NCBI GenBank assembly: GCA_052168235.1 | Contig: JBQLZK010000001.1 | Span: 160,001 to 224,000, forward strand | DNA from: Thainema sp. | GTDB lineage: Bacteria; Cyanobacteriota; Cyanobacteriia; Phormidesmidales; Phormidesmidaceae | Direction of reading: 5' to 3' | DNA length: 64,000 nt | Part shown: positions 12,747-23,522 of the stretch, piece after piece | How positions within the stretch are numbered: position 1 is the first letter of the stretch | Layout: every line of letters starts with the position of its first letter | The notes under the pieces: generated by a model | Told to the model about the DNA's origin: nothing | The model's input: the letters and a program-made list of their open reading frames with translations, nothing else | Databases searched by the model: none | Program-made: the position numbers and the translations under genes

Positions 12747-15725
12747 TTACTTTGTCTCCATCCAGTTTTGCCCAGCATGAACTTCAACTCGCAGCGGTAC
12801 TTCTAGCTGCACCGCCGACTCCATTGCGGTCTGAATTTTAGGGCTGAGTTCGGCCCATTCATCGGGCGGAGCCTCAAACACCAGTTCATCATGCACCTGT
12901 AAGAGCAGACGAGTTTCATACGACTTTAGCAAATCTTGGATCTGCACCATCGCGATTTTGATGATGTCAGCGCTAGAACCTTGAATCGGCGCATTGGCCG
13001 CTGCTCGCAGCAGTCCGGCATCATAGCCACCGGGACGAATCGTTTGCAAGTCAATCTCATCTGGACTCTTACCCTGGAGCCGCTTTAGGCTACCGCTGGT
13101 GAAATTGAAATAGCGGCGACGACCTTTAATTGTTTCGACGTAGTTGTTTGCGATCGCATTTTTCTGCATTTGCTGCAAATAGCCGAATACCAACGGATAG
13201 CGTTCGTTAAAGCGGTCAATGAACATTTTGGCATCGGCCCGACTCACTCCGGCTTCACGGGCAAAGCGGGAAGCTCCCATGCCGTAAATGACGCCGAAGT
13301 TGATCGTTTTACCCAAGCGGCGCTCGTCCGGAGTAACGTCGTCTTTCTCGAACAGCAAGCGAGCCGTCAAGGCGTGAACATCGTCGTTGTTGCGGTACGT
13401 CTCAACCAAAACAGGCTCACCGCTCAGGTGGGCCAAAATCCGTAGCTCAATCTGAGAATAGTCGGCTGCAGCCAAAATCCAGCCCGGTTCCGGAATAAAC
13501 GCCGCCCGAATCTGGCGACTGAAGGCGGTGCGAATCGGAATGTTTTGCAGGTTGGGATTGGACGAAGACAGGCGGCCTGTGGTCGTAATCGCCTGATTGA
13601 AGTCGGTATGTACCCGTCCCGTTTTGGGATTGACTAGCTCCGGCAGCGCATCCACATAGGTCGATTTCAGTTTGGACAACGTGCGAAATTCCACCACCGC
13701 ATCCACGACTGGGTGATCGCCCTGCAGTTTCTCTAGCGTGGCGGCATCGGTAGAGTAGCCCGTCTTCATCTTGCGCGACTTGCGCTTATCCAGTCCCAGC
13801 TTGTCAAAGAACAATTCGCTCAACTGCTTGGGCGAACCGAGATTAAACGTCTCGCCAGCATCCTCATACGCCTGCTGCTCGATCTCTTGCAAGTTCTTTT
13901 CCAGTTGAACTGAAAGTTTACGCAAGTACTCTTGATCGATGCGAATGCCCGTATATTCCATGTCGGCCAGAACAGGCTCCAGCGGCAGCTCGATCTCATG
14001 CAGCAAGGCCGGAAACGCTTCGACCTGCTCCAGTTGCGCCTGCAAGAGGGGTACTAACCGATAAGTCAGATGGACATCCATGCCACAGTAGTTAGCCACC
14101 GCTGGGATACTGACATCGGCAATCGTTTGCTTTTTGGGGACGAGATCGGTGTAGCTCGTCACTTCTAACCCAAAATAGCGCAGCGCCATATCGGTGAGAT
14201 TATGGCTACTTTCGGGATTGATCACGTAGCTGGCCAGCATCGGGTCAAACACCACGCCCTTCAGGTCAACTCCCTGGCAGCGCAGCACCAGCCGATCAAA
14301 CTTAGCATTCTGAAACGCCTTGGGATAAGCAGGATCTTCTAAGAGCGATCGCAACCTCTCCAGCACCGTCTGCACGTCCAGAGATTTCCCGACAGTGTGA
14401 CCAACGGGAATATAGGCCATGTCCGCCGCTTCCTCACCCCAGCAGCAGCCGATGCCGACTAACTGAGCCTGCCAGGGGTCAAGCGCTGTCGTTTCCGTAT
14501 CCCAGGCCGTCGGGTGCTTCGGATCAGTGTGCTGCTTAAGGCGCTGAATCAGCTCGTCTAACTCGTCGGTTGTTCGAACAATCTGCGGCTTGATCGTGAC
14601 GTTTTCGTCAGGAGCAGCCTGAGCTTTGAGCGTATCTTCGAAGGTAAAGAACGAAATGTCGTCATCGTCAAAGAATGGAGATGGAGGTGCGATCGCGCTT
14701 TTTCCCTCAGCCCCACCACTGGTTTCTGTCGCCTCAACCTCACCACCAAAGGCGGTCTGAATTTTGCCAATCCGCTTAATAAAACTCTGAAACTCTAGGC
14801 GCTTAAACTCTTGGACAACCTTCGCTTCGTCAAAGCCCTCCAGCTTACACATCGTCAAGCTGACATCAATCGGTACGCCCAAGTGAATCTGCGCCATGTA
14901 CTGCGAGTGCATCGCATCGTCGTGCCCCTCTTCCAGCTTCTTGCGAGTCGCACCTTTAATTTGGTCAATCGACGCATAAATATTTTGCAGGGAGCCATAC
15001 TCGTCCAGCAGCTTGACCGCTGTTTTTTGCCCAATTCCTTTTACACCAGGAATATTATCTGAGGTGTCGCCACAGAGGGCCTTGTAATCCACCACCTGAT
15101 CGGGGCGAATGCCCAGCTTTTCCTGCACCTGCTGGGGGCCAAATTCCGTTACTCTGGCTCCAGCCCGATAGAGAGCGCTGCCCATATGCAGCACGGAAAT
15201 TCCCTGCTCTGGATCAATGAGCTGAAACATATCCTGGTCGCCGCTGAGGATTTTGACCCGATAGCCGTCCTGAGCGGCTTTACGCGCTGTTGTCCCCAGC
15301 ACGTCATCCGCTTCGTAGCCATCCAGCATCAGAATCGGCACCCGCATCAGCGTCAGCAGCGCTTGCAGGTTTTTGATATCTTCTCGAAAATCATCTGGCG
15401 CTTCTGGTCGATCTGCCTTGTATGTGACATCGACATCATGGCGAAATGTGGGGGCACTGGAGTCGAACGCTGCCGCCGCATAGTCTGGCCGCTCGGAATC
15501 CATCACGTCCATCAGCAGCGTTAAGAAGCCGTAGGTAGCACTAGTGGGAATGCCAGAAGAAGTTCGCAATCCACCATCCGGGCCACGAGAAAAGGCATAG
15601 TAGGCCCGGTAGGCCAGCGAATGGCCATCAACGAGGAGCAGCGTGGGTTTCTCAGTCGCTTTGGGTGTCGCGGTTTCAGGAGTTGAATCAGCCAAGATTA
15701 GATCGAACAGATGAGCAAACGACAT
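12747..15725 (-). CDS. polA: DNA polymerase I
   Basis: 5'-3' exonuclease (LLVDGHSLAYRAY, YEADD, GDTSDNIPGV), 3'-5' exonuclease-like domain, and polymerase motifs DYSQIELR, KTINFGVIYG, LLQVHDEL. Start uncertain (ATG 15725 or TTG 15695). Confidence 0.97.
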   Translation of the reverse strand: MSFAHLFDLILADSTPETATPKATEKPTLLLVDGHSLAYRAYYAFSRGPDGGLRTSSGIPTSATYGFLTLLMDVMDSERPDYAAAAFDSSAPTFRHDVDVTYKADRPEAPDDFREDIKNLQALLTLMRVPILMLDGYEADDVLGTTARKAAQDGYRVKILSGDQDMFQLIDPEQGISVLHMGSALYRAGARVTEFGPQQVQEKLGIRPDQVVDYKALCGDTSDNIPGVKGIGQKTAVKLLDEYGSLQNIYASIDQIKGATRKKLEEGHDDAMHSQYMAQIHLGVPIDVSLTMCKLEGFDEAKVVQEFKRLEFQSFIKRIGKIQTAFGGEVEATETSGGAEGKSAIAPPSPFFDDDDISFFTFEDTLKAQAAPDENVTIKPQIVRTTDELDELIQRLKQHTDPKHPTAWDTETTALDPWQAQLVGIGCCWGEEAADMAYIPVGHTVGKSLDVQTVLERLRSLLEDPAYPKAFQNAKFDRLVLRCQGVDLKGVVFDPMLASYVINPESSHNLTDMALRYFGLEVTSYTDLVPKKQTIADVSIPAVANYCGMDVHLTYRLVPLLQAQLEQVEAFPALLHEIELPLEPVLADMEYTGIRIDQEYLRKLSVQLEKNLQEIEQQAYEDAGETFNLGSPKQLSELFFDKLGLDKRKSRKMKTGYSTDAATLEKLQGDHPVVDAVVEFRTLSKLKSTYVDALPELVNPKTGRVHTDFNQAITTTGRLSSSNPNLQNIPIRTAFSRQIRAAFIPEPGWILAAADYSQIELRILAHLSGEPVLVETYRNNDDVHALTARLLFEKDDVTPDERRLGKTINFGVIYGMGASRFAREAGVSRADAKMFIDRFNERYPLVFGYLQQMQKNAIANNYVETIKGRRRYFNFTSGSLKRLQGKSPDEIDLQTIRPGGYDAGLLRAAANAPIQGSSADIIKIAMVQIQDLLKSYETRLLLQVHDELVFEAPPDEWAELSPKIQTAMESAVQLEVPLRVEVHAGQNWMETK

Positions 15726-15942
15726 CTCATTGTAACGAGCAATTGGCGATGCGGATGATGATGCAGTGGCGAGGCAATTTATTGCCTCGGTTAAATAGGA
15801 TATCAGCGCTGCACGAGGATGATCAGAATGAACACTGCGACGGCAATGGCAACATAGGGAAACCATTGGATTTGGCCTTATTGGCAGTTGCGGGCTTATG
15901 CTGTAAACGTGGTTGTTGAGATGAGGTTATATTTCATACCAC

Positions 15943-16212
15943 TCATGGAAAGTAGCGGTAGAATTCGCGGCGGTGTAGCACTCTCATGACTTCTAACGTG
16001 TCGCCGTTAAGTTCAACTCCAACCCGATAATCACCGACGCGAATGCGATATCGGTTGGGATAGCCTATTAATGCTTTTACATTAGGCAGACTTTGGAGGG
16101 ACTGAGCTGCTGGCAATGTTGTAAAGGCAAGCTCAAAGATTCGCTGATAAGCGGATGAGCCTTTGAGTTTTTTCAGATCTTTCAAAAAGAGCTTCCGATA
16201 CTCAATCTTCAA
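15943..16212 (-). CDS. RelE/ParE family toxin
   Basis: TTG start at 16212 overlaps the antitoxin stop (TTGA); 89 aa MKIEYRKLFLKDLKKL...YRIRVGDYRVG...RVLHRREFYRYFP. Confidence 0.9.
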   Translation of the reverse strand: MKIEYRKLFLKDLKKLKGSSAYQRIFELAFTTLPAAQSLQSLPNVKALIGYPNRYRIRVGDYRVGVELNGDTLEVMRVLHRREFYRYFP

Positions 16213-16442
16213 TCGGCTTCCTCCTCTGCCAAAAACTGAAGCGCATCTTCGCGGCTGAGCAGGGGCGATGTTTTGGCTTCGTCCATCGCTTTGTTTAAGC
16301 AGTAGTCTGCTAAATTTTCGGCGAGATTTTCGAGTGTTTCGTTGCCTTGGGGCATCAGTCGCTGCCAAAGCTCAATGGGAATGACAACGGCCTTGGGATT
16401 GCCGTCAGCGTCGGTGAGATAGTTGATGGCAGGGTTGGTCAT
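16209..16442 (-). CDS. Putative antitoxin of the RelE toxin
   Basis: 77-aa acidic protein (YLTDADGNPKAVVIPIELW...LSREDALQFL) coupled upstream of the toxin. Confidence 0.8.
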   Translation of the reverse strand: MTNPAINYLTDADGNPKAVVIPIELWQRLMPQGNETLENLAENLADYCLNKAMDEAKTSPLLSREDALQFLAEEEAD

Positions 16443-16467
16443 GGCCTAGCCTCCTTTATGTTTTACT

Positions 16468-19185
16468 CTAACGCTGCAAGATGATAATCAGAACACAGAC
16501 AATAATGGCGATGGCAATATAGGGGAGCCATTGGATCTGACCTTGGCGGGAATTGGACTTTGAGGAATAGGAAGAGTTGGGAAGGGATTTTTCCCACCAA
16601 TCAGGCCTTGAATCCTCTTTTTCCAGAAGAGTAGGCATTTTTCGAGGTTGCATCACAATAGTCTGATTGAGATTGTAAATCACTCGTTCACAATCCTTAA
16701 CTTCGTGGTCAAGTTGCAACTCTTCGTAAATTGCTTTTGCTGCTTCGAGATCTTGCTTCGCTGCCCATAGCTCGTCAATTCTGGCGTAAGCTAAAGCTCG
16801 GTTAAATAGATTGGCTGCTTGGCCCCTGGGTGTATCAATCCGTTTCGCAATTTTTAGAGATTGCCCATAGAATTCAATTGCTTTAACATGTTGACCTAAC
16901 GAACTATAAGCAAGGCCAAGATTACAAAGATTAGCAGCTTGCCCATGAAGATCACCAATCTTCCGATTAATTTCTAAGGCTTGTTTATGTAGGTTCACTG
17001 CTTTGTCATATTGGTGCAACGAATGATACGTACTGCCGAGACTACCAAGAGAAACAGCTTGACCATCAAGGTCACCAATCATCTGCGATATCTCTAAAGT
17101 CTGCTGATGCATTTCAATTGCTTTGTCATGCTGACCCAAGGAATTATAAGCAAAGCCAAGATCTCCAAGATTGGCTACTTTGCCTGTGAGATAACCAATT
17201 TCTTGATTAATTTCTAGGGCCTGCTTGTGCAGTGCAATTGCTTTGGTACATTTACCTAAGGAATAGTATGCAGAGCCAAGGTTGCCTAGATTTGTAGCTT
17301 GACCTTTGCGATGGCCGATCTTCTCCATTATTTCTAGGGCTTGCTCGTGCAGTTTAATTGCTTTATCGTATTGATCTAACAAGCGATAGCTTTGACCAAG
17401 ATTGCAAAGATTATGGGCTTGACCTTCAGCATGGCCAATTTCCTGCACGATTTCTAAAGCTTGCTCATGTAGCTCAACTGATCGAGCATATTCGCTTAAC
17501 TCCTTATAGACTATGCCGAGATTGCCTAGATTGGTAGCTTCCCCCCTACGATCTCCAACCTCTCGATGGATCTTTATAGCTTGCTCAAATAGCTCAATTG
17601 CTTTGTCATACTGGCTCAATGAGACATAAGCCACTCCAAGATTGTCGAAAGCAACAGCTTGGCTGTGAAGATCTCCAAGCTCCTGCTCAATTTCCAGAGC
17701 TTGCTTCTGTAGCTCAATTGATCTGGTGTACTGGCTTAATAAACGGTAGGCAAGGCCAAGGTTACCAAGAGCAGCGGCAAATTTCCGCCTTTTCTCCAGT
17801 GTTTTCGGTGGATAATTTTTCCAGGCTGTCGTCAGCCGTTCATAGGTATCTGCCCAAATGCGATAGTAACCTAGCAAGTCAAACCATTTAGTACATTCTG
17901 AGATCGCATCATAGGCAGCTTCATATTTGTCTAGCTCACAGTGATGGTGAAATACAGCTAAATAGTCATCTAAAAACTTCTCAATATCGTTTTGCTCTGG
18001 TTTTAGAGGTAAATAGTCAGTAAAGAACTCAACCGCCTTCTGATGTGCTCCAACCTCCAATTGTCGCTCTTGCAATGTCTTCTCGACAAACTGCCGCATC
18101 AGCGGATGCAATGTCCAGCGATCTTGTCGCTTCAGCAAAAAGCCCTGCATTTCTAATAGTTCCAGATCAGCCTCTGCCACCTGCGGCTGCATTGCCTGTG
18201 CCCGTTCCACATCAAACGGATTCTGATAAACCGACACCTCCAGCAGTGCCGTCTGCAACGTCTCCGATAACTGCTGCAACAAAAGCTGAAAAATCTCCTC
18301 AACCTTCGCTTCCGGATCACCCAAATTGTTCTCAAACAGCCTCTCAAAAAAGCTTAAATCCGTTTCTTTGAGTTGTCCCGCTGCCGTCTGATTCAGCCAA
18401 CTCGCCGCCAAATTCAACAACAACGGATGCCCATCTGCCAACGTCGAAAGCTGCTCTAAATTGACTTCTTCCGATGCAGAAATTTCCTGCTTCTGCAAAA
18501 ACGCCGCCCCTTCCTGCGGTGTAAACCCCGGCAAAACGTAACGAACCGAATCTTCAGCAACAAACCGATTCCGCGTCGTCACCAGAATCATGCTTTTCCG
18601 TCCCCGCTGTTGCCACTGCTCCAAAAATGCCTCAAACAATGGCCGATCTGCCGACTGCTCAATCTCCTCAAGCTGATCCATCACCAGCAGACAGCGGCGT
18701 TCACTCAGCCGATGAATTGTCTGAGTAATTAGCTCCTCGTCTGGAACTGACTCATCCGGAACTAAAAAGCCAATTTCTTGATGTACCCAGCGACCAAACG
18801 TACTGAAAGATGGCTGTTTTTGAAAATTGATCCACAGCGCATAGTCAAACCGCGCTTGAGTAACTTCATACGCCCAACACGCCAACAGCGACTTACCAAA
18901 ACCACCTGCTGCCACCACTTCAGTCAGCAGAACACGATCCGACTGTATCCGCTCCATCAAATTAGCTTGTGGCTGTGTCCGGTCAACCCATCTGTCCGGC
19001 TCACGCCTGGGTAGAATGGGATCAATTTCTGTAACCAGCACCGTGCGCTGAGACTCAATGCGATCGCCAAAATTTGCGGTTCCATGAAACTCACCAAATC
19101 CGTAGTTTCGGGAATTACCATGTCCTTCGATATCAATGTTGACCTTGTTAGGATCAAATTTCGGCGTTTTGTCTTGCCCAGTCAT
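16468..19185 (-). CDS. NLR-like STAND (NB-ARC) ATPase with TPR sensor, N-terminal amyloid-like motif and C-terminal hydrophobic tail
   Basis: Walker A AAGGFGKS, Walker B CLLVMDQLE, ILVTTR, DGHPLLL (GxP), WTLHPLMR (MHD-like); nine 40-aa TPRs; tail WLPYIAIAIIVCVLIIILQR. Confidence 0.9.
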   Translation of the reverse strand: MTGQDKTPKFDPNKVNIDIEGHGNSRNYGFGEFHGTANFGDRIESQRTVLVTEIDPILPRREPDRWVDRTQPQANLMERIQSDRVLLTEVVAAGGFGKSLLACWAYEVTQARFDYALWINFQKQPSFSTFGRWVHQEIGFLVPDESVPDEELITQTIHRLSERRCLLVMDQLEEIEQSADRPLFEAFLEQWQQRGRKSMILVTTRNRFVAEDSVRYVLPGFTPQEGAAFLQKQEISASEEVNLEQLSTLADGHPLLLNLAASWLNQTAAGQLKETDLSFFERLFENNLGDPEAKVEEIFQLLLQQLSETLQTALLEVSVYQNPFDVERAQAMQPQVAEADLELLEMQGFLLKRQDRWTLHPLMRQFVEKTLQERQLEVGAHQKAVEFFTDYLPLKPEQNDIEKFLDDYLAVFHHHCELDKYEAAYDAISECTKWFDLLGYYRIWADTYERLTTAWKNYPPKTLEKRRKFAAALGNLGLAYRLLSQYTRSIELQKQALEIEQELGDLHSQAVAFDNLGVAYVSLSQYDKAIELFEQAIKIHREVGDRRGEATNLGNLGIVYKELSEYARSVELHEQALEIVQEIGHAEGQAHNLCNLGQSYRLLDQYDKAIKLHEQALEIMEKIGHRKGQATNLGNLGSAYYSLGKCTKAIALHKQALEINQEIGYLTGKVANLGDLGFAYNSLGQHDKAIEMHQQTLEISQMIGDLDGQAVSLGSLGSTYHSLHQYDKAVNLHKQALEINRKIGDLHGQAANLCNLGLAYSSLGQHVKAIEFYGQSLKIAKRIDTPRGQAANLFNRALAYARIDELWAAKQDLEAAKAIYEELQLDHEVKDCERVIYNLNQTIVMQPRKMPTLLEKEDSRPDWWEKSLPNSSYSSKSNSRQGQIQWLPYIAIAIIVCVLIIILQR
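16705..17784 (-). repeat. 120-bp-period tandem repeat encoding 9 TPR units
   Basis: Recurring CAATTGCTTT / GCCAAG / ATTTCTA blocks at exact 120-nt spacing. Confidence 0.85.
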
Positions 19186-19274
19186 GACTTTGAATCACCA
19201 AAGTTTGCTGTCCCGTGAAATTCACCAAATCCATAATTTCGGGAATTATCGTGTCCCTCAATGTCAACGTTGAT
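19063..19274 (-). repeat. 81-bp direct repeat (19063-19143 and 19194-19274) encoding the shared signalling motif
   Basis: VNIDIEGHGNSRNYGFGEFHGTANFGD (receptor aa 15-41) versus INVDIEGHDNSRNYGFGEFHGTANFGD (effector C-terminus). Confidence 0.95.
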
Positions 19275-19631
19275 TTCCTTATGGACTTGGTTCTGCTGAC
19301 CAATGTTAATAATCTGTTGCGCCATCTGCTGCACATCCTCAGCAAACTGCTGATTCTCTGGATCTCTTAATTCATAAGCTAGACAAATCTCCAGTTCTTC
19401 TAGTGCAGCCTCAGACTTTTCTTGCTCTACTCGGGTGATGGCCTTTTCCATCCGCTTATTTCCAGTAAAGTGCTGCTTGATCCGTTTCCACAACGCCTCA
19501 ATCTGGCTACCCGCCGTCTTCAACATGGCTGGGGTCGTTATTTCTGCCGCTTTGCCTGCTGCTGCCTCAACAAACTTACTTGCCGCTATGGCAGCGATCC
19601 CCGCTGCCGTTAACGTGACTGGATCAGTCAT
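19182..19631 (-). CDS. Putative Bell/HeLL-like helical cell-death effector with C-terminal amyloid-like motif
   Basis: 149 aa: N-terminal Ala-rich hydrophobic helix MTDPVTLTAAGIAAIAASKFVE, helical core, Q/N-rich linker, and C-terminal motif shared with the downstream NLR. ATGA stop/start overlap at 19182-19185. Confidence 0.75.
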   Translation of the reverse strand: MTDPVTLTAAGIAAIAASKFVEAAAGKAAEITTPAMLKTAGSQIEALWKRIKQHFTGNKRMEKAITRVEQEKSEAALEELEICLAYELRDPENQQFAEDVQQMAQQIINIGQQNQVHKEINVDIEGHDNSRNYGFGEFHGTANFGDSKS

Positions 19632-19813
19632 AGTTTTATATCTAGGTAATGGCTACATTTGACTCATCCCAATTCTGCACAGAATTTCTCTCAGTGTCGA
19701 GAATCGAGGATTAAGCTAGTTGTTATATGTATAGACAAAGCCATTGATACGTTACGGCTAGCGCCTGACACATCCTACGAAGCTACAAAACTTAAAATCT
19801 GGGGAAACAGCAG

Positions 19814-20053
19814 ATGGCTGAAAACATCGTGAAAGTAGACATCTCATTTCAAGCCTTACTCACAGCCGTTCTATCTCTGGAACGCGCTGAGAAGCAGAAG
19901 CTTTGGGAATTCCTGGAAACAGATTTATTTCCAGACGAGGAGGATTCACCCGAAGATCTGGCTGAAATTGAAGCTGCTCGCGCCGACTATACAGCAGGTG
20001 ACTACATCACGTTTGATCAATACGCAGCAGAGCGAGCTAGCCGTTACGAATGA
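19814..20053 (+). CDS. Putative antitoxin
   Basis: 79-aa acidic protein ending AEIEAARADYTAGDYITFDQY; ATGA overlap with the downstream RelE-like gene. Confidence 0.75.
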   Translation: MAENIVKVDISFQALLTAVLSLERAEKQKLWEFLETDLFPDEEDSPEDLAEIEAARADYTAGDYITFDQYAAERASRYE

Positions 20054-20289
20054 CGTACACAATCATTACGCCTAAAGTTGTTCGAAAACAGCTAGATGAC
20101 TTGCCCGATGACGTTTATGAACGTATTGCTCCTAAGATCCAGCAGCTTGCAGAACATCCTCGCCCAGACGGGGTTACAAAGCTGAAAGGAACCGATCGCG
20201 AATATTGGGTTCGTTGTGAAATTGATGACAAGGAAAAAGTGATCTTGCTCTTATAGTGCAAGCACTAAAGAGATATCTACCGGAAGTAG
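20050..20289 (+). pseudogene. Degraded RelE/ParE family toxin
   Basis: The RelE start (MTYTIITPKVVRKQLDDLP...HPRPDGVTKLKG) is present, but the usual YRIRxGDYRV core appears collapsed to EYWVRCEIDD. In-frame stops TAG (20254) and TAA (20266) precede the residual tail CKH*RDIYRK*. Confidence 0.75.
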
Positions 20290-20298
20290 ACAAATTTC

Positions 20299-20325
20299 AA
20301 AAAGGACAGCCAAGATAGCTGTCCT
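20299..20325 (-). terminator. Rho-independent terminator after the ferredoxin gene
   Basis: AGGACAGC-7nt-GCTGTCCT with a T-run on the minus strand. Confidence 0.55.
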
Positions 20326-20345
20326 ATAGCATTCAATCTTTAGCC

Positions 20346-20834
20346 CTAAATATCTTTACTTTGCACAAAATAGGAGCCAATACTGAAGCTGGTATCGCTT
20401 TCCTCAAGCTGCTTTAAGACTGAACGGGTAATTAGCTTCTCTTTTTCGACCAGCACTTGACCTGTGATTGGGTGCAGCAAATCTTGCTCTGCCCGCCGTC
20501 CAATCAGCGCCTCAATATCCTTCAGCGAATTAATATACATACCGGGCGGTAGCTCCACCACCACGCCTTCGCCCTGCACCCGTGCCTGACAGGCCAAGCG
20601 CGAATTGGGCTTGCAGGTGGTAATCACTTCTAACGTACGCTGTTCCCGGCGGTTAATTGGGCTGAGCGAGCCCATGCCCTCTTTCACATAGATATGGCAG
20701 GTGGCGCACATACCCCGCCCACCACACTCTTTCAAAACGTCCAGTTCTTCATCCAGCAGCACAGAGAGCAGGTTGCCGTCAGTTGCGATCGCGGTTTCCT
20801 GAGCAATTGGTTCTAGTCGAACAATTTTAACCAT
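20346..20834 (-). CDS. 2Fe-2S ferredoxin-domain protein
   Basis: ECGGRGMCATCH...RLACQ cluster motif with a C-terminal extension. Confidence 0.9.
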   Translation of the reverse strand: MVKIVRLEPIAQETAIATDGNLLSVLLDEELDVLKECGGRGMCATCHIYVKEGMGSLSPINRREQRTLEVITTCKPNSRLACQARVQGEGVVVELPPGMYINSLKDIEALIGRRAEQDLLHPITGQVLVEKEKLITRSVLKQLEESDTSFSIGSYFVQSKDI

Positions 20835-21082
20835 TAAATTCGCCTACTCAATATCAAAACAAATTGAAACCCAAAAACCGAAACGAGAAGAGCCAATTAG
20901 CTAGAAAGGAACCAGCTTAAAACTGTATCAATTAGACAATTTAGACAGTTTTGTTGCCAACTCAATAAAAATCAACATTCAACTCACCATTTAACCAACC
21001 ATTTCGCAAAACCAAACCTTTATCTAAAAATGCTGATGTTGATTCACAACAAGTGATTTACAACCAGATGACAAGGTAAATC

Positions 21083-21961
21083 TTATCGCTCCGGGAAAAC
21101 CGTCAAATCAGACAGCAAAATGTACCGTTGACGTTCATCCAACGCCTCTTGCTCCATCAAAACGGGGAAATCGCGGATTACTCTTGCGCAACGGGTTACG
21201 AACGCCGTTACCCACATTTTGATCCACTTCTGATGCTCATTTTCAATCTCTTCTTGCAGCGAGGTTTGAGAACTCGGTGCAAGACTAATATTCCCCGTCC
21301 GTTCAATCTGAAAAACGTCCAGCCAATCTAAATCAGGCCGACTGGTTTTCCAGTAGTTTGATACCACAGCTTTGCCCAGATATTGGCTAGCATATTGGCT
21401 CAAGCTATTCAACGCAGATAGCACCTCACCTAAATTCGGTGGCTTCATCACCGAAGCCTGATTCGATTTCGGTGTCGGCGGAGTTCTCTGGGCAGGGGCG
21501 ACCGTCGCATTGGACTGGGTTGTAGAGCCCGATGTGCTTAAGGCAGCTTGGGATTGAGACTCTCCCCAGTAGCTTTGTCCCGATAACGATATACTTCCCG
21601 CTAACAACCGAAATGTTGCAACCGCTTTGGTAATATCGCCCAGAAGTTCATCCTTCAGCAGACTAATTCCCTGCATATAGGACGTGATATCCAGATTTTC
21701 GTTCGTCAGAACCAGTAAAATTGCACCCTGTTCCAGTTTATAAATGTACACACTGTAATTGGAAAACAGGAACTCAAACGACTCAAATCCGGATGGCGTT
21801 GTGTCGATAACCTGTTGAATTCCTTGGGCTAGCGCCTCCCGCTGCTGGAAGTTGAGTGTCTGATCCAATCCAAAAAAATAGGGACGCGATCGCCCATCCA
21901 TTAGGGCAATGCCCGCAATTCCTGGTAAATTCAGAAAATCCTGAACGACCTCCCGTTTCAT
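21083..21961 (-). CDS. Hypothetical protein with a possible Roadblock-like N-terminus
   Basis: 292 aa; DFLNLPGIAGIALMDGRSRPYF, an S/T/P-rich linker, and a helical C-domain. Confidence 0.7.
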   Translation of the reverse strand: MKREVVQDFLNLPGIAGIALMDGRSRPYFFGLDQTLNFQQREALAQGIQQVIDTTPSGFESFEFLFSNYSVYIYKLEQGAILLVLTNENLDITSYMQGISLLKDELLGDITKAVATFRLLAGSISLSGQSYWGESQSQAALSTSGSTTQSNATVAPAQRTPPTPKSNQASVMKPPNLGEVLSALNSLSQYASQYLGKAVVSNYWKTSRPDLDWLDVFQIERTGNISLAPSSQTSLQEEIENEHQKWIKMWVTAFVTRCARVIRDFPVLMEQEALDERQRYILLSDLTVFPER

Positions 21962-22484
21962 AGGATGCCTAAAATCGTTGTCCGTCTAAATCAGCAATAG
22001 TCAATCTGGAATCATCAATCTGGAGAGTCAATCGAGCTGAGTTGAGCCAACTCTTCATACTGGATTGAACATACAGATTGAAAACAGTCAAGCAAGCGAT
22101 CATCAAGTTTTGCGCCTTAACTTGGGCTTTGGCTTTAACAGGGTCACACAAGTTTATCCTGGTCTAGAGCGCAACTTCCACTTAGCGAAAATTAAAGTCA
22201 GCACATCAGGTGCGATCGCATGCTAGTTCTTAAATTAATGCACAGTTGAATCGGGTAAGAAATATTTCAAATCATGTCAAAGGGTAATCTAAGAATTAAA
22301 GTGCATTTCATTACAGTACGTTGGATAGTGCATTAGACGTTGAGTATGTAAATCTGCATGCAACAACACTACACAATGACCGGAATATCTATATCTCTCA
22401 CACTACAGAGATATGATATGTGGCGTATTTCGCCTCAGATGTTTCAAACTTGTTCGTTTGTTCCTCCGTATAAGGCTAGCAGCT

Positions 22485-23522
22485 ATGTCTGATCTTCCGT
22501 TTACCTTAGACCAACTTCGAATCCTCAAAGCGATCGCCGTTGAAGGGAGTTTCAAGCGAGCTGCTGACAGTCTGTACGTCTCCCAACCTGCCGTCAGCCT
22601 ACAGGTACAAAACCTAGAGCGTCAATTGGATGTCCCCCTGTTTGATCGGGGTGGACGACGCGCCCAGTTGACAGAGGCCGGCCATTTGCTGCTCAGCTAC
22701 GGAGATCGAATCCTCACTCTATGCCAGGAAACTTGTCGGGCCATTGAAGATTTACAAAACTTACAGGGTGGAACCCTGATTGTAGGGGCAAGTCAGACGA
22801 CAGGCACCTATTTACTGCCCCGCATGATTGGTCTATTTCGGCAGCAGTATCCCGATGTGGCCGTCCAGCTTCATGTGCATTCCACTCGTCGCACCTCCTG
22901 GAGCGTGGCCAACGGGCAGATTGATTTAGCAATTATTGGCGGTGAGGTTCCTCCTGAGTTACAGGACTCTCTTAATATTGTTCCCTACGCTGAGGATGAA
23001 CTCGCGCTGATTATGCCCGTTTTTCATCCCTTAGCCAATGTTGACCTAATTCAGAAAGACGATCTGTACAAGCTCAACTTTATTGCTCTGGATTCCCAAT
23101 CAACCATTCGCAAGGTCATCGACCAGGTGCTAACCCGGAGCGGTATTGAGACGCGGCGGCTCAAGATTGAAATGGAGCTGAACTCAATCGAGGCGATTAA
23201 GAATGCTGTCCAGTCCGGTCTCGGCGTTGCCTTCGTTTCAATTTCAGCCATTGAAAAAGAACTGCAAATGGGTCTACTTCAGCGCACCAAGGTTGATGAA
23301 GTGGTGATTAACCGCACTTTATCGGTCATTGTCAATCCGGCCCGCTATCGCTCAAAAGCCGCTGAAGCATTCACGAAGGAAATTTTGCCCCAGTTCACAT
23401 CGAAACCGATTAACCTGGATCGAAAAGCCGATCGGAGTGGAGTAACCGAACCACCAGCCAGCGTTCCTTTAAAATCTTCGGCCTCGGCTTCCCCCCGCTC
23501 CGGCAGTGAATCCTTGAAGTAA
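22485..23522 (+). CDS. rbcR: LysR regulator RbcR/Ycf30
   Basis: [40 protein letters not shown]...[13 protein letters not shown], the conserved ycf30 sequence. Confidence 0.88.

What the first reader, a model, noticed from the sequence alone, without database searches (positions are those of the whole stretch)
16468..19631. Candidate NLR-amyloid cell-death signalling pair sharing a 27-aa motif
Seen: a 149-aa gene ends ...INVDIEGHDNSRNYGFGEFHGTANFGDSKS*. Its stop overlaps (ATGA) the start of a 905-aa NB-ARC-TPR gene that has no N-terminal enzymatic domain and instead begins with VNIDIEGHGNSRNYGFGEFHGTANFGD. The small protein has an Ala-rich hydrophobic N-terminal helix (MTDPVTLTAAGIAAIAASKF), a helical core and a Q/N-rich linker. 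Established: in fungal NWD2/HET-S, and in bacterial NLR/Bell pairs carrying BASS motifs, a short N-terminal motif on the receptor is known or proposed to template amyloid folding of the same motif at the effector C-terminus, releasing a membrane-damaging helical domain. Inference: this is a cyanobacterial immune module of that type, in which the TPRs sense a trigger, STAND oligomerises, the motif nucleates a beta-solenoid and the effector kills the cell. The motif (alternating V-N-I-D-I-E strand, G/N turns, GFGEFHG..NFG) may be an uncatalogued amyloid family; I cannot tell without a search.
Basis: partly seen in the sequence, partly recalled or inferred. Interest (0 to 1): 0.93.

Follow-up and report, generated by a model that had tools for sequence, protein, structure and literature searches.

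The report
Cyanobacterial NLR and amyloid-motif death-effector pair
Two overlapping cyanobacterial genes encode a small helical membrane-attack-type protein and a large NLR-like sensor that carry nearly the same 27-residue tag, a clean new example of the bacterial amyloid-signalling immune modules first described in 2020.

Summary
On the minus strand, a 149-aa gene (19182-19631) overlaps by ATGA a 905-aa NB-ARC/TPR gene (16468-19185). They share a 27-aa motif, 24/27 identical, far above chance.

The identity is kept at the protein level. 12 of the 24 identical residues use different codons, about what independent codon choice predicts.

In 22 related loci plus the window, 22 of 23 effector/partner pairs keep a matching C-terminal/N-terminal motif, although the motif type differs between loci. 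The partners are NB-ARC, NACHT or nSTAND1 proteins.

The effector's all-helical domain (AF2 pLDDT 90) has the acidic "M-x-D/E-P" start and hydrophobic first helix described for Bell domains. It belongs to a family of at least 490 sequence clusters and also occurs fused in cis to NB-ARC/TPR, CHAT and TIR proteins.

This is a Bell-like/BASS-NLR amyloid-signalling pair, a kind known since Dyrka et al. 2020: a new member, not a new kind. Fibril formation, toxicity and the trigger remain inferred.

I could not test whether this "NFGD" motif class is one of BASS1-11, because the logos are images and the supplements are closed.

The parts
19182..19631 (-). Effector gene, 149 aa: helical Bell-like domain, conserved Q/N/I-rich junction and C-terminal motif
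   Evidence: ORF. No Pfam, NCBIfam or PADLOC family. 27 homologues of 92-162 aa. Profile search: 490 cluster representatives at E<=1e-3.
19569..19631 (-). Effector residues 1-21: M-T-D-P start followed by an Ala-rich hydrophobic helix (putative membrane-inserting helix 1)
   Evidence: Sequence. Mean KD 1.48 over residues 4-21. 139 of 173 M-starting family proteins have an acidic residue at position 2 or 3, and 127 of 173 fit M(M)x0-2[DE][PS]. This matches the 'MEPIS' region described in the Ibarlosa 2024 preprint.
19284..19631 (-). Globular all-alpha domain, residues 1-116 (seven helices in the model)
   Evidence: AF2 with a 120-sequence alignment gives pLDDT 90.0 and pTM 0.84, with helices 9-17, 22-28, 34-39, 41-54, 59-70, 74-89 and 91-116.
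19302..19322 (-). Residues 104-110 (A-Q-Q-I-I-N-I), the best conserved stretch of the family, at the end of the last helix just before the motif
   Evidence: Q102, Q105, I107 and N109 are invariant in the 30-sequence alignment A2. A104 is at 0.84 and I107 at 0.89 in the 120-sequence alignment. A coupling role is inference.
19194..19274 (-). Effector-side copy of the 27-aa motif (residues 120-146)
   Evidence: for coordinates and identity. Composition over both copies: G 11/54, N 8/54, no P, L or K. The region is disordered in the AF2 model (pLDDT <50 for residues 115-149).
19182..19185 (-). ATGA stop/start overlap coupling the two genes
   Evidence: The same -4 overlap occurs in 7 of 22 related loci (L002, L003, L005, L006, L008, L010, L011).
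16468..19185 (-). NLR-like gene, 905 aa: leader, motif, linker, NB-ARC, TPR array and C-terminal tail anchor
   Evidence: 141 homologues at E<=1e-20, with the closest at 63% and 61% identity; the latter is named as from Thainema sp..
19063..19143 (-). NLR-side copy of the 27-aa motif (residues 15-41)
   Evidence: 32 of the 120 listed NLR homologues carry the same motif class in their first 80 residues.
18388..18942 (-). NB-ARC NTPase domain (residues 82-266) with Walker A at residue 92 and Walker B at residue 166
   Evidence: Pfam PF00931, E 8.4e-10. Walker motif matches.
16696..17805 (-). TPR array (about residues 461-830), the presumed sensor
   Evidence: Pfam TPR_12 E 6e-64 plus related TPR families. 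The repeats are not near-identical at DNA level: TRF finds no array.
16471..16605 (-). C-terminal tail: P-D-W-W-x-K-S-L-P box, a Ser/basic linker, then a hydrophobic stretch of about 18 residues (residues 886-903) ending the protein
   Evidence: KD19 maximum 2.67 at residue 884. The same tail is present in the partners of L002, L004, L007, L011 (second ORF) and L017 and in the L014 remnant. 26 of the 120 listed NLR homologues have a hydrophobic tail.
15943..16442 (-). Flanking RelB-like antitoxin / ParE toxin pair (context, not part of the module)
   Evidence: Pfam RelB-like E 1.8e-16 and ParE_toxin E 2.9e-9.

Best explanation
This is a two-gene, co-transcribed regulated-cell-death module of the Bell/BASS-NLR type. 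The NB-ARC/TPR protein is the sensor and the 149-aa protein is the executioner.

Proposed sequence of events:
1. The TPR array binds an unknown trigger.
2. The NB-ARC domain exchanges nucleotide and oligomerises.
3. This brings several copies of the N-terminal 27-aa motif together, and they fold into a cross-beta nucleus.
4. The nucleus templates the near-identical motif at the effector's C-terminus.
5. Folding of that tail perturbs the adjoining last helix, including the nearly invariant A-Q-Q-I-I-N-I junction, and frees the N-terminal hydrophobic helix.
6. The helix inserts into a membrane and kills or arrests the cell.

The NLR's own C-terminal hydrophobic tail would place nucleation at a membrane.

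Shown here:
- the gene arrangement;
- motif identity maintained at the protein level;
- co-variation of the motif between partners across loci;
- modular exchange of motif types on one effector domain;
- the effector domain's occurrence in cis at the N-terminus of NB-ARC/TPR, CHAT/TIR and TIR proteins;
- matches to Walker A and B patterns in the NTPase domain;
- a conserved tail anchor.

Inferred by analogy with HET-S/NWD2, the BASS1/BASS3 prion assays and Bab/Agp: every biochemical step, the trigger, and the defence role.
For: - Arrangement and domains.
- Motif: 24/27 identical, score 145 against a shuffle maximum of 60.
- Codons: 12 of 24 identical residues use different codons, against 13.7 +/- 2.3 expected for independent codon draws. 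There are 3 non-synonymous differences. The identity is therefore selected at the protein level and is not a recent duplication or gene conversion.
- Related loci: of 28 loci, 22 have a downstream partner. With the window, 22 of 23 pairs show an effector-C-terminus to partner-N-terminus match at z>=4.5.
- Motif types differ between loci, yet partners match. Within the NFGD class (15 pairs), cognate identity is 0.545 against 0.366 for non-cognate, with 0 of 20000 permutations as high.
- Partners are STAND NTPases in 14 of 22 loci at E<=1e-7: NB-ARC 9, NACHT 4, nSTAND1 1.
- Effector family: 490 representatives at E<=1e-3, mostly 120-165 aa. In cis fusions: NB-ARC+TPR (P0134, P0149), CHAT+TRADD-N+TIR (P0093) and TIR (P0071).
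- N-terminal signature: 139 of 173, matching the description.
- All-alpha model, pLDDT 90.
- Motif composition is G/N-rich with no P, L or K, as the 2020 preprint reports for BASS motifs.
[quoted passage not shown] Bab/Agp gives abortive infection through amyloid signalling.
Against: - No experiment bears on this pair.
- The high-confidence model finds no solved structure at E<=0.001 (best E 2.1, TMq<=0.33). Bab (9H9V), HeLo and MLKL were not retrieved. MLKL appeared only at E 3.7-7.0 and TMq 0.13-0.14 with the weaker model, so membership of the Bell/HeLo fold class is not shown structurally.
- No Pfam family, including RHIM, PP, HET-s and sigma models, matches the motif at E<=10.
- Cognate partners are the single best match in only 8 of 23 pairs and 6 of 15, because related loci share motif types.
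- L020 shows no match (z -1.1).
- Five of the 15 pairs were paired by equal contig length, not by seen adjacency. The loci are related, so the permutation count is not a true probability.
- The flanking genes are toxin-antitoxin pairs and housekeeping genes, not recognised defence systems.
- No homologue was found in the phage or plasmid collections.
Confidence: 0.75

Rival explanations
1. The shared motif is a stoichiometric docking tag, not a self-propagating amyloid. The effector tail would pair with the NLR N-terminus by simple beta-strand addition and be activated or released one-to-one within the NLR oligomer.
For: Matching motifs show only that the two ends must recognise each other. 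Nothing here measures templating. The motif region is simply disordered in the monomer model.
Against: The same architecture with other motif families was shown to form fibrils and propagate as prions, with NLR-side to Bell-side conversion. In Bab/Agp, amyloid conversion was tied to defence. The G/N-rich, P/L/K-free composition fits the published amyloid-motif bias.
Confidence: 0.12
2. Same machinery, different biology. The pair does not act in phage defence but in kin or non-self recognition, or in developmental or stress-induced cell death in a filamentous cyanobacterium.
For: The relatives sit in records named as Leptolyngbya-, Phormidesmis- and Nostoc-type cyanobacteria. The 2020 preprint links these pairs to multicellularity. 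The 2024 preprint states that the biological role of Bell/NLR pairs is still unknown. No phage-borne homologue or recognised defence gene is nearby.
Against: The only functionally tested Bell-type system (Bab/Agp) is antiphage. The pair lies in a low-GC island of about 7 kb bracketed by toxin-antitoxin genes, a context typical of variable defence loci (my own knowledge).
Confidence: 0.2
3. The small protein is a regulator or adaptor of the NLR (for example an inhibitor held by the shared tag), and the membrane effect, if any, comes from the NLR's own hydrophobic tail.
For: The NLR has a conserved C-terminal hydrophobic segment. The effector fold has no match to known pore-formers.
Against: The small protein's domain occupies the N-terminal effector position of all-in-one NB-ARC/TPR proteins and is interchangeable with CHAT/TIR contexts. 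Its acidic-start hydrophobic helix is the family's signature. NACHT and nSTAND1 partners with other C-termini keep the same effector.
Confidence: 0.05
4. The repeat is a by-product of a recent local duplication or gene conversion, without function.
For: The two copies lie only 50 nt apart (19143 to 19194).
Against: Synonymous sites are as different as random codon draws (12 observed against 13.7 +/- 2.3 expected), with only 3 amino-acid changes. The arrangement recurs with different motif types in 22 of 23 pairs.
Confidence: 0.01

Closest known systems
Bell-domain / BASS-motif / NLR gene pairs of filamentous bacteria (Dyrka et al. 2020; preprint 10.1101/2020.01.06.895854; Results and one Discussion section read)
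   Same: - A small helical protein of about 120-150 aa sits upstream of, and collinear with, an NB-ARC/TPR gene, with a 4-bp overlap. The paper's founding example also overlaps by 4 bp, and 42% of its pairs overlap.
- A motif of about 25 aa is shared between the effector C-terminus and the NLR N-terminus.
- The motif is G/N-rich and P/L/K-poor.
- The host is cyanobacterial.
- The same domain is also found as the N-terminal domain of NLRs.
   Different: - I could not place the motif in BASS1-10. The logos are images and Table S2 is a closed supplement. The paper itself left 44 conserved pairs outside BASS1-10.
- Motif identity here (89%) is well above the 43-56% of the tested cross-seeding pairs.
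- The word 'transmembrane' does not occur in that preprint, so the NLR tail anchor seen here is not described there.
Bab/Agp of E. coli ECOR25 (BASS11; Ibarlosa et al. 2024 preprint 10.1101/2024.11.07.622273; abstract, part of the Introduction, the structure section and passages read)
   Same: [quoted passage not shown] One motif copy per protein, with glycines as strand breakers.
   Different: [quoted passage not shown] The Babybell domain is about 80 aa against about 116 aa here. No sequence or fold match to the deposited structure was found. The host is an enterobacterium and the locus is in a prophage.
HET-S / NWD2 of Podospora anserina
   Same: The logic is the same: the NLR's N-terminal motif templates the C-terminal motif of an adjacent-gene pore-forming helical protein, whose N-terminal helix then targets the membrane (as summarised).
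   Different: It is fungal. The NLR is NACHT/WD. The effector carries two pseudo-repeats forming a beta-solenoid, whereas here there is a single copy. No Pfam HET-s or HeLo match.
RHIM / PP / BASS3 motifs
   Same: A short amyloid signalling tag in cell-death pathways.
   Different: [quoted passage not shown] There is no Pfam hit at E<=10.

Membership tests
BASS-type amyloid-signalling effector/NLR gene pair | Adjacent collinear genes, effector upstream, with a very short distance or overlap | tested here: met
   ATGA overlap at 19182-19185, both genes on the minus strand.
BASS-type amyloid-signalling effector/NLR gene pair | A motif of about 20-40 aa shared by the effector C-terminus and the NLR N-terminus | tested here: met
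   27 aa, 24/27 identical, score 145 against a shuffle maximum of 60.
BASS-type amyloid-signalling effector/NLR gene pair | The partner has NLR architecture (NB-ARC or NACHT plus TPR/WD repeats) | tested here: met
   NB-ARC E 8.4e-10 and TPR_12 E 6e-64. Matches to Walker A and B patterns.
BASS-type amyloid-signalling effector/NLR gene pair | The pairing of motifs recurs in homologous loci | tested here: met
   22 of 23 pairs at z>=4.5. Within-class cognate identity 0.545 against 0.366 non-cognate, with 0 of 20000 permutations as high. Exception: L020.
BASS-type amyloid-signalling effector/NLR gene pair | Composition bias: enriched in Q/N/G/V/I, depleted in K/P/L | tested here: met
   G 11, N 8 and no P, L or K in 54 residues. 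There is no Q and only 2 V and 4 I.
BASS-type amyloid-signalling effector/NLR gene pair | The motif forms amyloid fibrils, propagates as a prion, and the NLR side seeds the effector side | not testable with these tools
   Needs a bench assay. The one in-silico complex job never ran because the queue was full.
BASS-type amyloid-signalling effector/NLR gene pair | Found in multicellular or filamentous prokaryotes | tested here: inconclusive
The nearest relatives are in records named Thainema, Leptolyngbya and Phormidesmis.
Bell domain | An all-alpha domain of about 100 aa | tested here: met
   Residues 9-116 are helical, pLDDT 90.
Bell domain | N-terminal hydrophobic helix with an acidic residue at position 2 or 3 ('MEPIS' region) | tested here: met
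   M-T-D-P start and KD 1.48 over residues 4-21. 139 of 173 family members have the acidic residue. Definition taken.
Bell domain | Occurs in proteins of about 120-140 aa and, more rarely, as the N-terminal domain of NLRs | tested here: met
   for lengths. P0134 and P0149 are the domain plus NB-ARC plus TPR.
Bell domain | Detectable sequence homology to the founding Bell proteins (e.g. ONI86675.1, RCJ33357.1) | not tested
No Pfam or NCBIfam model exists for the domain.
Bell domain | Fold related to Babybell / HeLo / MLKL four-helix sheath around helix 1 | tested here: inconclusive
   No PDB match at E<=0.001. [quoted passage not shown] I could not check whether 9H9V is in the library.
Pfam HetE-N (PF20701) | hmmscan match to the family model | tested here: not met
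   Only a language-model lead: clusters where 12% and 26% of members carry it, scores 0.94 and 0.93. 0 of 120 family members match at E<=0.001.
Catalogued motif families BASS1-BASS11 | Match to the published motif profile | not testable with these tools
   The logos are images, the profiles and Table S2 are in closed supplements, and no motif text was found.
RHIM / PP / BASS3 | Central G-phi-Q-phi-G core; Pfam RHIM or Ses_B match | tested here: not met
   No Q in the motif. 0 Pfam families at E<=10.
HET-s/HRAM beta-solenoid motif | Two pseudo-repeats in the effector separated by a flexible loop | tested here: not met
   One copy in each protein. No Pfam HET-s match.

The most novel reading that the evidence does not exclude
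The 'NFGD' motif class (pattern: alternating strand, A/G-x-D/G, S/A-R, four mixed residues, G, three to five residues, T-x-N-F-G-D) is an amyloid-signalling family not among BASS1-11. It marks a clade of NB-ARC/TPR receptors that are tail-anchored in a membrane. The amyloid nucleus would then form on the membrane surface where the Bell-like executioner must insert. That would be a spatially pre-positioned variant of NLR amyloid signalling, with the invariant A-Q-Q-I-I-N-I junction acting as the helix-to-strand switch that couples tail folding to release of helix 1.
Probability: 0.3. Interest if true: 0.55.

Novelty: new member of a known kind. Interest (0 to 1): 0.4.

Why it matters
Bell/BASS-NLR pairs were predicted in 2020. 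Within the held library, the papers I read report a function for only one distant system, E. coli Bab/Agp, whose sensor is not an NLR. The 2024 preprint states that the role of the Bell/NLR pairs is still unknown.

This pair would make a compact test case:
- the two motif copies are 89% identical;
- the family offers natural motif swaps on one effector scaffold, a ready-made specificity panel;
- the receptor carries a conserved membrane anchor that could explain where signalling happens.

It does not open a new category. Its value is as a well-characterised example and as a source of testable details (the tail anchor and the conserved junction).

Tried and rejected
1. Complex prediction of three NLR N-termini (residues 1-60) with one effector tail (residues 100-149). 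It was never accepted because the queue was full, so there is no result.

2. Fold searches against the PDB with both models. No match at E<=0.001. The MLKL rows at E 3.7-7.0 and TMq 0.13-0.14 are not evidence.

3. Profile search of PDB sequences. Best E 0.048, unrelated helical proteins.

4. Pfam, NCBIfam and PADLOC on the effector. Nothing. The HetE-N lead from the protein atlas was not confirmed by hmmscan. Kaur et al. 2021 (passages) mention an uncharacterised effector domain shared with fungal HetE proteins in the TPR-GreA/B-C-PIN systems, so this stays a lead only.

5. Looking for printed BASS consensus sequences. None in text.

6. Accession look-up of family members, to tie them to the named Bell proteins.

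7. Search with the NLR tail alone. Only the query itself came back, because the word index is too coarse for a 70-aa low-complexity piece. The tail's spread was instead read from full-length homologues.

8. Tandem repeats in the TPR array. None, so there is no sign of the near-identical repeat units discussed for some NLRs.

9. Promoter and terminator scan. Counts equal those of the shuffles, so it is uninformative.

10. Phage and plasmid collections. No homologue.

11. A third motif-like stretch at 30544-30723. Judged to be chance.

12. Literature on membrane-anchored bacterial NLRs. Nothing on this tail; the searches cover only the held library.

Not checked: the metagenome contigs and viral contigs collections (closed) and all paper supplements (closed).

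Full report
OBSERVATION

The two genes are on the minus strand: a 149-aa ORF at 19182..19631 and a 905-aa ORF at 16468..19185. The stop of the first and the start of the second share ATGA.

Pfam places NB-ARC at residues 82-266 of the large protein (E 8.4e-10) and a long TPR array after it (TPR_12, E 6e-64). Nothing lies N-terminal of NB-ARC. Walker A (residue 92) and Walker B (residue 166) patterns are present.

The shared motif is effector residues 120-146 (19194..19274) and NLR residues 15-41 (19063..19143).

The copies are 24/27 identical. The local alignment score is 145, against mean 24.8, sd 5.3 and maximum 60 in 2000 shuffles. Within the window each copy finds only the other at E about 1e-15.

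IS THE IDENTITY SELECTED?

At DNA level the copies are 66/81 identical. 12 of the 24 identical residues use different codons and only 3 codons change the residue. Drawing codons independently from the window's own usage predicts 13.7 +/- 2.3 differing codons.

Synonymous sites are thus effectively randomised. The two copies are old and held together at the protein level, not by a recent duplication or gene conversion.

RELATIVES AND THE PAIRING TEST

The small protein has 27 homologues of 92-162 aa, none with a Pfam domain and all named 'hypothetical' where named. A genome scan gave 28 loci. All are in records named as cyanobacteria except one MAG labelled Rhizobium.

Six loci had no usable partner:
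- L001 and L026: the contig ends.
- L012: the effector is truncated.
- L014: only a 90-aa receptor remnant is left.
- L019 and L027: no partner ORF.

In the other 22 loci plus the window, the effector's last 45 aa match the first 75 aa of the downstream protein at z>=4.5 in 22 of 23 cases. L020 fails.

The motif type differs between loci. There is an NFGD type like the window's, an N-Y-G-R-D-Q type and an R-I-G-D-D-Y type, and in each locus the partner carries the same type.

Because related loci share types, the cognate partner is the single best scorer in only 8 of 23 cases. Within the NFGD class alone (15 pairs), cognate identity is 0.545 against 0.366 for non-cognate pairs, and 0 of 20000 permutations reach it. 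Two cautions apply. Five of those pairs were matched by equal contig length rather than by seen adjacency. The loci are related, so this is not a true probability.

Pair-specific co-substitutions are visible. The window pair shares its unusual N-Y-G-F-G-E-F-H-G core. The two closest pairs, one in a record named Thainema sp., share an intermediate N-N-F-G-E-F-N-A version.

Partners are NB-ARC in 9 loci, NACHT in 4 and nSTAND1 in 1, of 22 at E<=1e-7. Three show only TPRs at that threshold and five show nothing, among them three short 116-175-aa proteins.

THE EFFECTOR DOMAIN

A profile of 30 diverse members found 490 cluster representatives at E<=1e-3 and 212 at E<=1e-10, mostly 120-165 aa. Their C-termini carry a wide variety of G/N/Q-rich tails on the same N-terminal domain.

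Longer members place the domain at the N-terminus of other proteins:
- NB-ARC+TPR proteins (P0134, P0149);
- a CHAT+TRADD-N+TIR protein (P0093);
- a TIR protein (P0071);
- GUN4-domain proteins.

That is the effector position of all-in-one receptors.

139 of 173 members have an acidic residue at position 2 or 3, and 127 of 173 fit M(M)x0-2[DE][PS]. This is the feature Dyrka et al. give for Bell and that Ibarlosa et al. call the 'MEPIS' region, shared by Bell, Hell, Bab and several antiphage NLRs.

With a 120-sequence alignment, AlphaFold2 gives seven helices over residues 9-116 at pLDDT 90.0 and pTM 0.84. The tail is disordered.

No solved structure matches at E<=0.001, and no Pfam, NCBIfam or PADLOC model matches. 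[quoted passage not shown] The negative fold search therefore weakens a structural membership claim without contradicting the functional reading.

THE MOTIF

Over both copies the composition is G 11/54 and N 8/54, with no P, L or K. This is in line with the bias reported for BASS motifs.

The motif has no Q and lacks the G-phi-Q-phi-G core of RHIM/PP/BASS3. No Pfam family matches at E<=10. Each protein has a single copy, unlike the two pseudo-repeats of HET-s.

A small HMM of the class finds it in 29 of the 178 effector-family proteins held at that point (P0001-P0178) and in the first 80 residues of 32 of 120 listed NLR homologues. The class is therefore common in this group of cyanobacteria, and the window's version is a divergent allele.

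Whether the class equals one of BASS1-11 could not be tested. The logos are images and the profiles sit in closed supplements. The 2020 preprint lists Leptolyngbya among genera with hits and leaves 44 conserved pairs outside BASS1-10.

The NLR ends in a conserved tail: a P-D-W-W-x-K-S-L-P box, a Ser/basic linker, then about 18 hydrophobic residues to the C-terminus (KD19 2.67 at residue 884).

The same tail is present in 7 of the 19 proteins examined: the window, L002, L004, L007, the second ORF of L011, L017 and the L014 remnant. It is absent from the short, apparently truncated NB-ARC partners L005, L006, L008 and L020. The NACHT partners instead have internal hydrophobic segments.

Among 120 listed NLR homologues, 26 have such a tail and 18 have both the tail and the NFGD motif. 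Several others, including some from records named Nostoc, Aulosira and Dendronalium, end in a W/R-rich segment.

'Transmembrane' does not occur in the 2020 preprint, and my two literature searches found nothing on it. Those searches cover only the held library.

Second, the best conserved stretch of the effector family is A-Q-Q-I-I-N-I at the end of the last helix, directly before the variable motif. I propose, as inference, that it couples tail folding to opening of the helical bundle. I recall, without having read it here, that in HET-S the prion-domain fold overlaps the end of the HeLo domain.

CONTEXT

The pair lies in a stretch of about 7 kb (about 15.5-22.5 kb) at GC 0.42-0.50, between flanks at 0.51-0.56.

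On one side is a RelB-like/ParE pair. On the other is a small overlapping gene pair with only a weak ParE hit (E 0.03; none at E<=0.01). Beyond these lie polA, an ABC ATPase, a ferredoxin-like gene and a LysR regulator.

No recognised defence system is adjacent. No homologue occurs in the phage or plasmid collections.

MECHANISM

The best reading is the published amyloid-signalling scheme:
1. The TPR array senses a trigger.
2. NB-ARC oligomerises.
3. The N-terminal motifs form a cross-beta nucleus.
4. The effector's tail is templated.
5. Helix 1 is released and attacks the membrane.

This has been tested for other motif families, as prion conversion in Podospora and fibrils in vitro for BASS1 and BASS3, and as phage-triggered abortive infection for Bab/Agp. 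For this pair every biochemical step is inferred.

Rivals: a non-propagating docking tag; a role in kin recognition or developmental death rather than phage defence; the small protein as a regulator. A duplication artefact is excluded.

VERDICT

The system belongs to a kind described in 2020, so it is a new member rather than a new kind.

Its points of interest are the very high motif identity, the natural panel of swapped motifs on one scaffold, the conserved junction and the tail-anchored receptor. Interest 0.4.

PAPERS SEEN
- Dyrka et al. 2020 preprint: outline, all three parts of Results, Discussion section 16, passages.
- Ibarlosa et al. 2024 preprint: outline, Introduction part 1, section 8, passages.
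- PMC8086366, PMC12261475, PMC13506858, PMC13581612, PMC10907252, PMC8195603: passages only.
- PMC3531502: search listing only.
- No supplements were seen.

Noticed in passing
window 16471-16605 (-): The NLR ends in a conserved P-D-W-W-x-K-S-L-P box, a linker and a hydrophobic tail anchor of about 18 residues. The tail is shared by 7 of the 19 partner proteins examined and by 26 of the 120 listed NLR homologues. Several homologues, some from records named Nostoc, Aulosira and Dendronalium, end instead in a W/R-rich segment.
   Followed up: partly
window 19302-19322 (-): A-Q-Q-I-I-N-I, at the end of the effector's last helix, is the most conserved stretch of the whole family whatever the motif type. 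It may be the switch between the amyloid tail and the helical bundle.
   Followed up: partly
window about 15500-22500: Low-GC island (0.42-0.50 against 0.51-0.56 in the flanks). It holds the pair, a RelB-like/ParE toxin-antitoxin pair (15943-16442, -) and a second small overlapping pair (19814-20256, +) with only a weak ParE hit.
   Followed up: partly
window 30544-30723 (-): A 59-aa ORF in an intergenic stretch shows weak similarity to the motif (tblastn E 0.001 with the NLR copy and 0.072 with the effector copy; 35-38% identity over about 31 aa). Probably chance.
   Followed up: partly
L016 4965-5492, L022 4969-5496, L018 5114-5464: In three loci from records named Scytonema, Microcoleus and Brasilonema, the motif-matching partner is not a STAND protein. 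It is a short protein of 116-175 aa with no Pfam hit at E<=1e-7. In L016 and L022 it is followed by a protein of about 285 aa whose translation shows a hydrophobic stretch that I did not analyse.
   Followed up: no
L008 1126-3293; L011 4974-7284; L014 4955-5227; L012 4474-4749: Signs of decay in related loci. The receptor is split into two ORFs in L008 and L011 and reduced to a 90-aa TPR-plus-tail remnant in L014. In L012 the effector is truncated after about 80 residues, next to unannotated ORFs on the other strand.
   Followed up: no
P0134, P0149, P0093, P0071, P0079, P0106, P0122: The effector domain also occurs fused in cis. With NB-ARC+TPR it keeps an amyloid-like motif between the two (visible). 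It also occurs with CHAT+TRADD-N+TIR, with TIR, and unexpectedly with GUN4-like domains.
   Followed up: partly
L013 (contig CALRKB020000034.1): One related locus sits in a MAG labelled Rhizobium sp., although its effector and NACHT partner closely resemble those from cyanobacterial records such as Pseudanabaena and Phormidium. This may be a binning error or a transfer.
   Followed up: no
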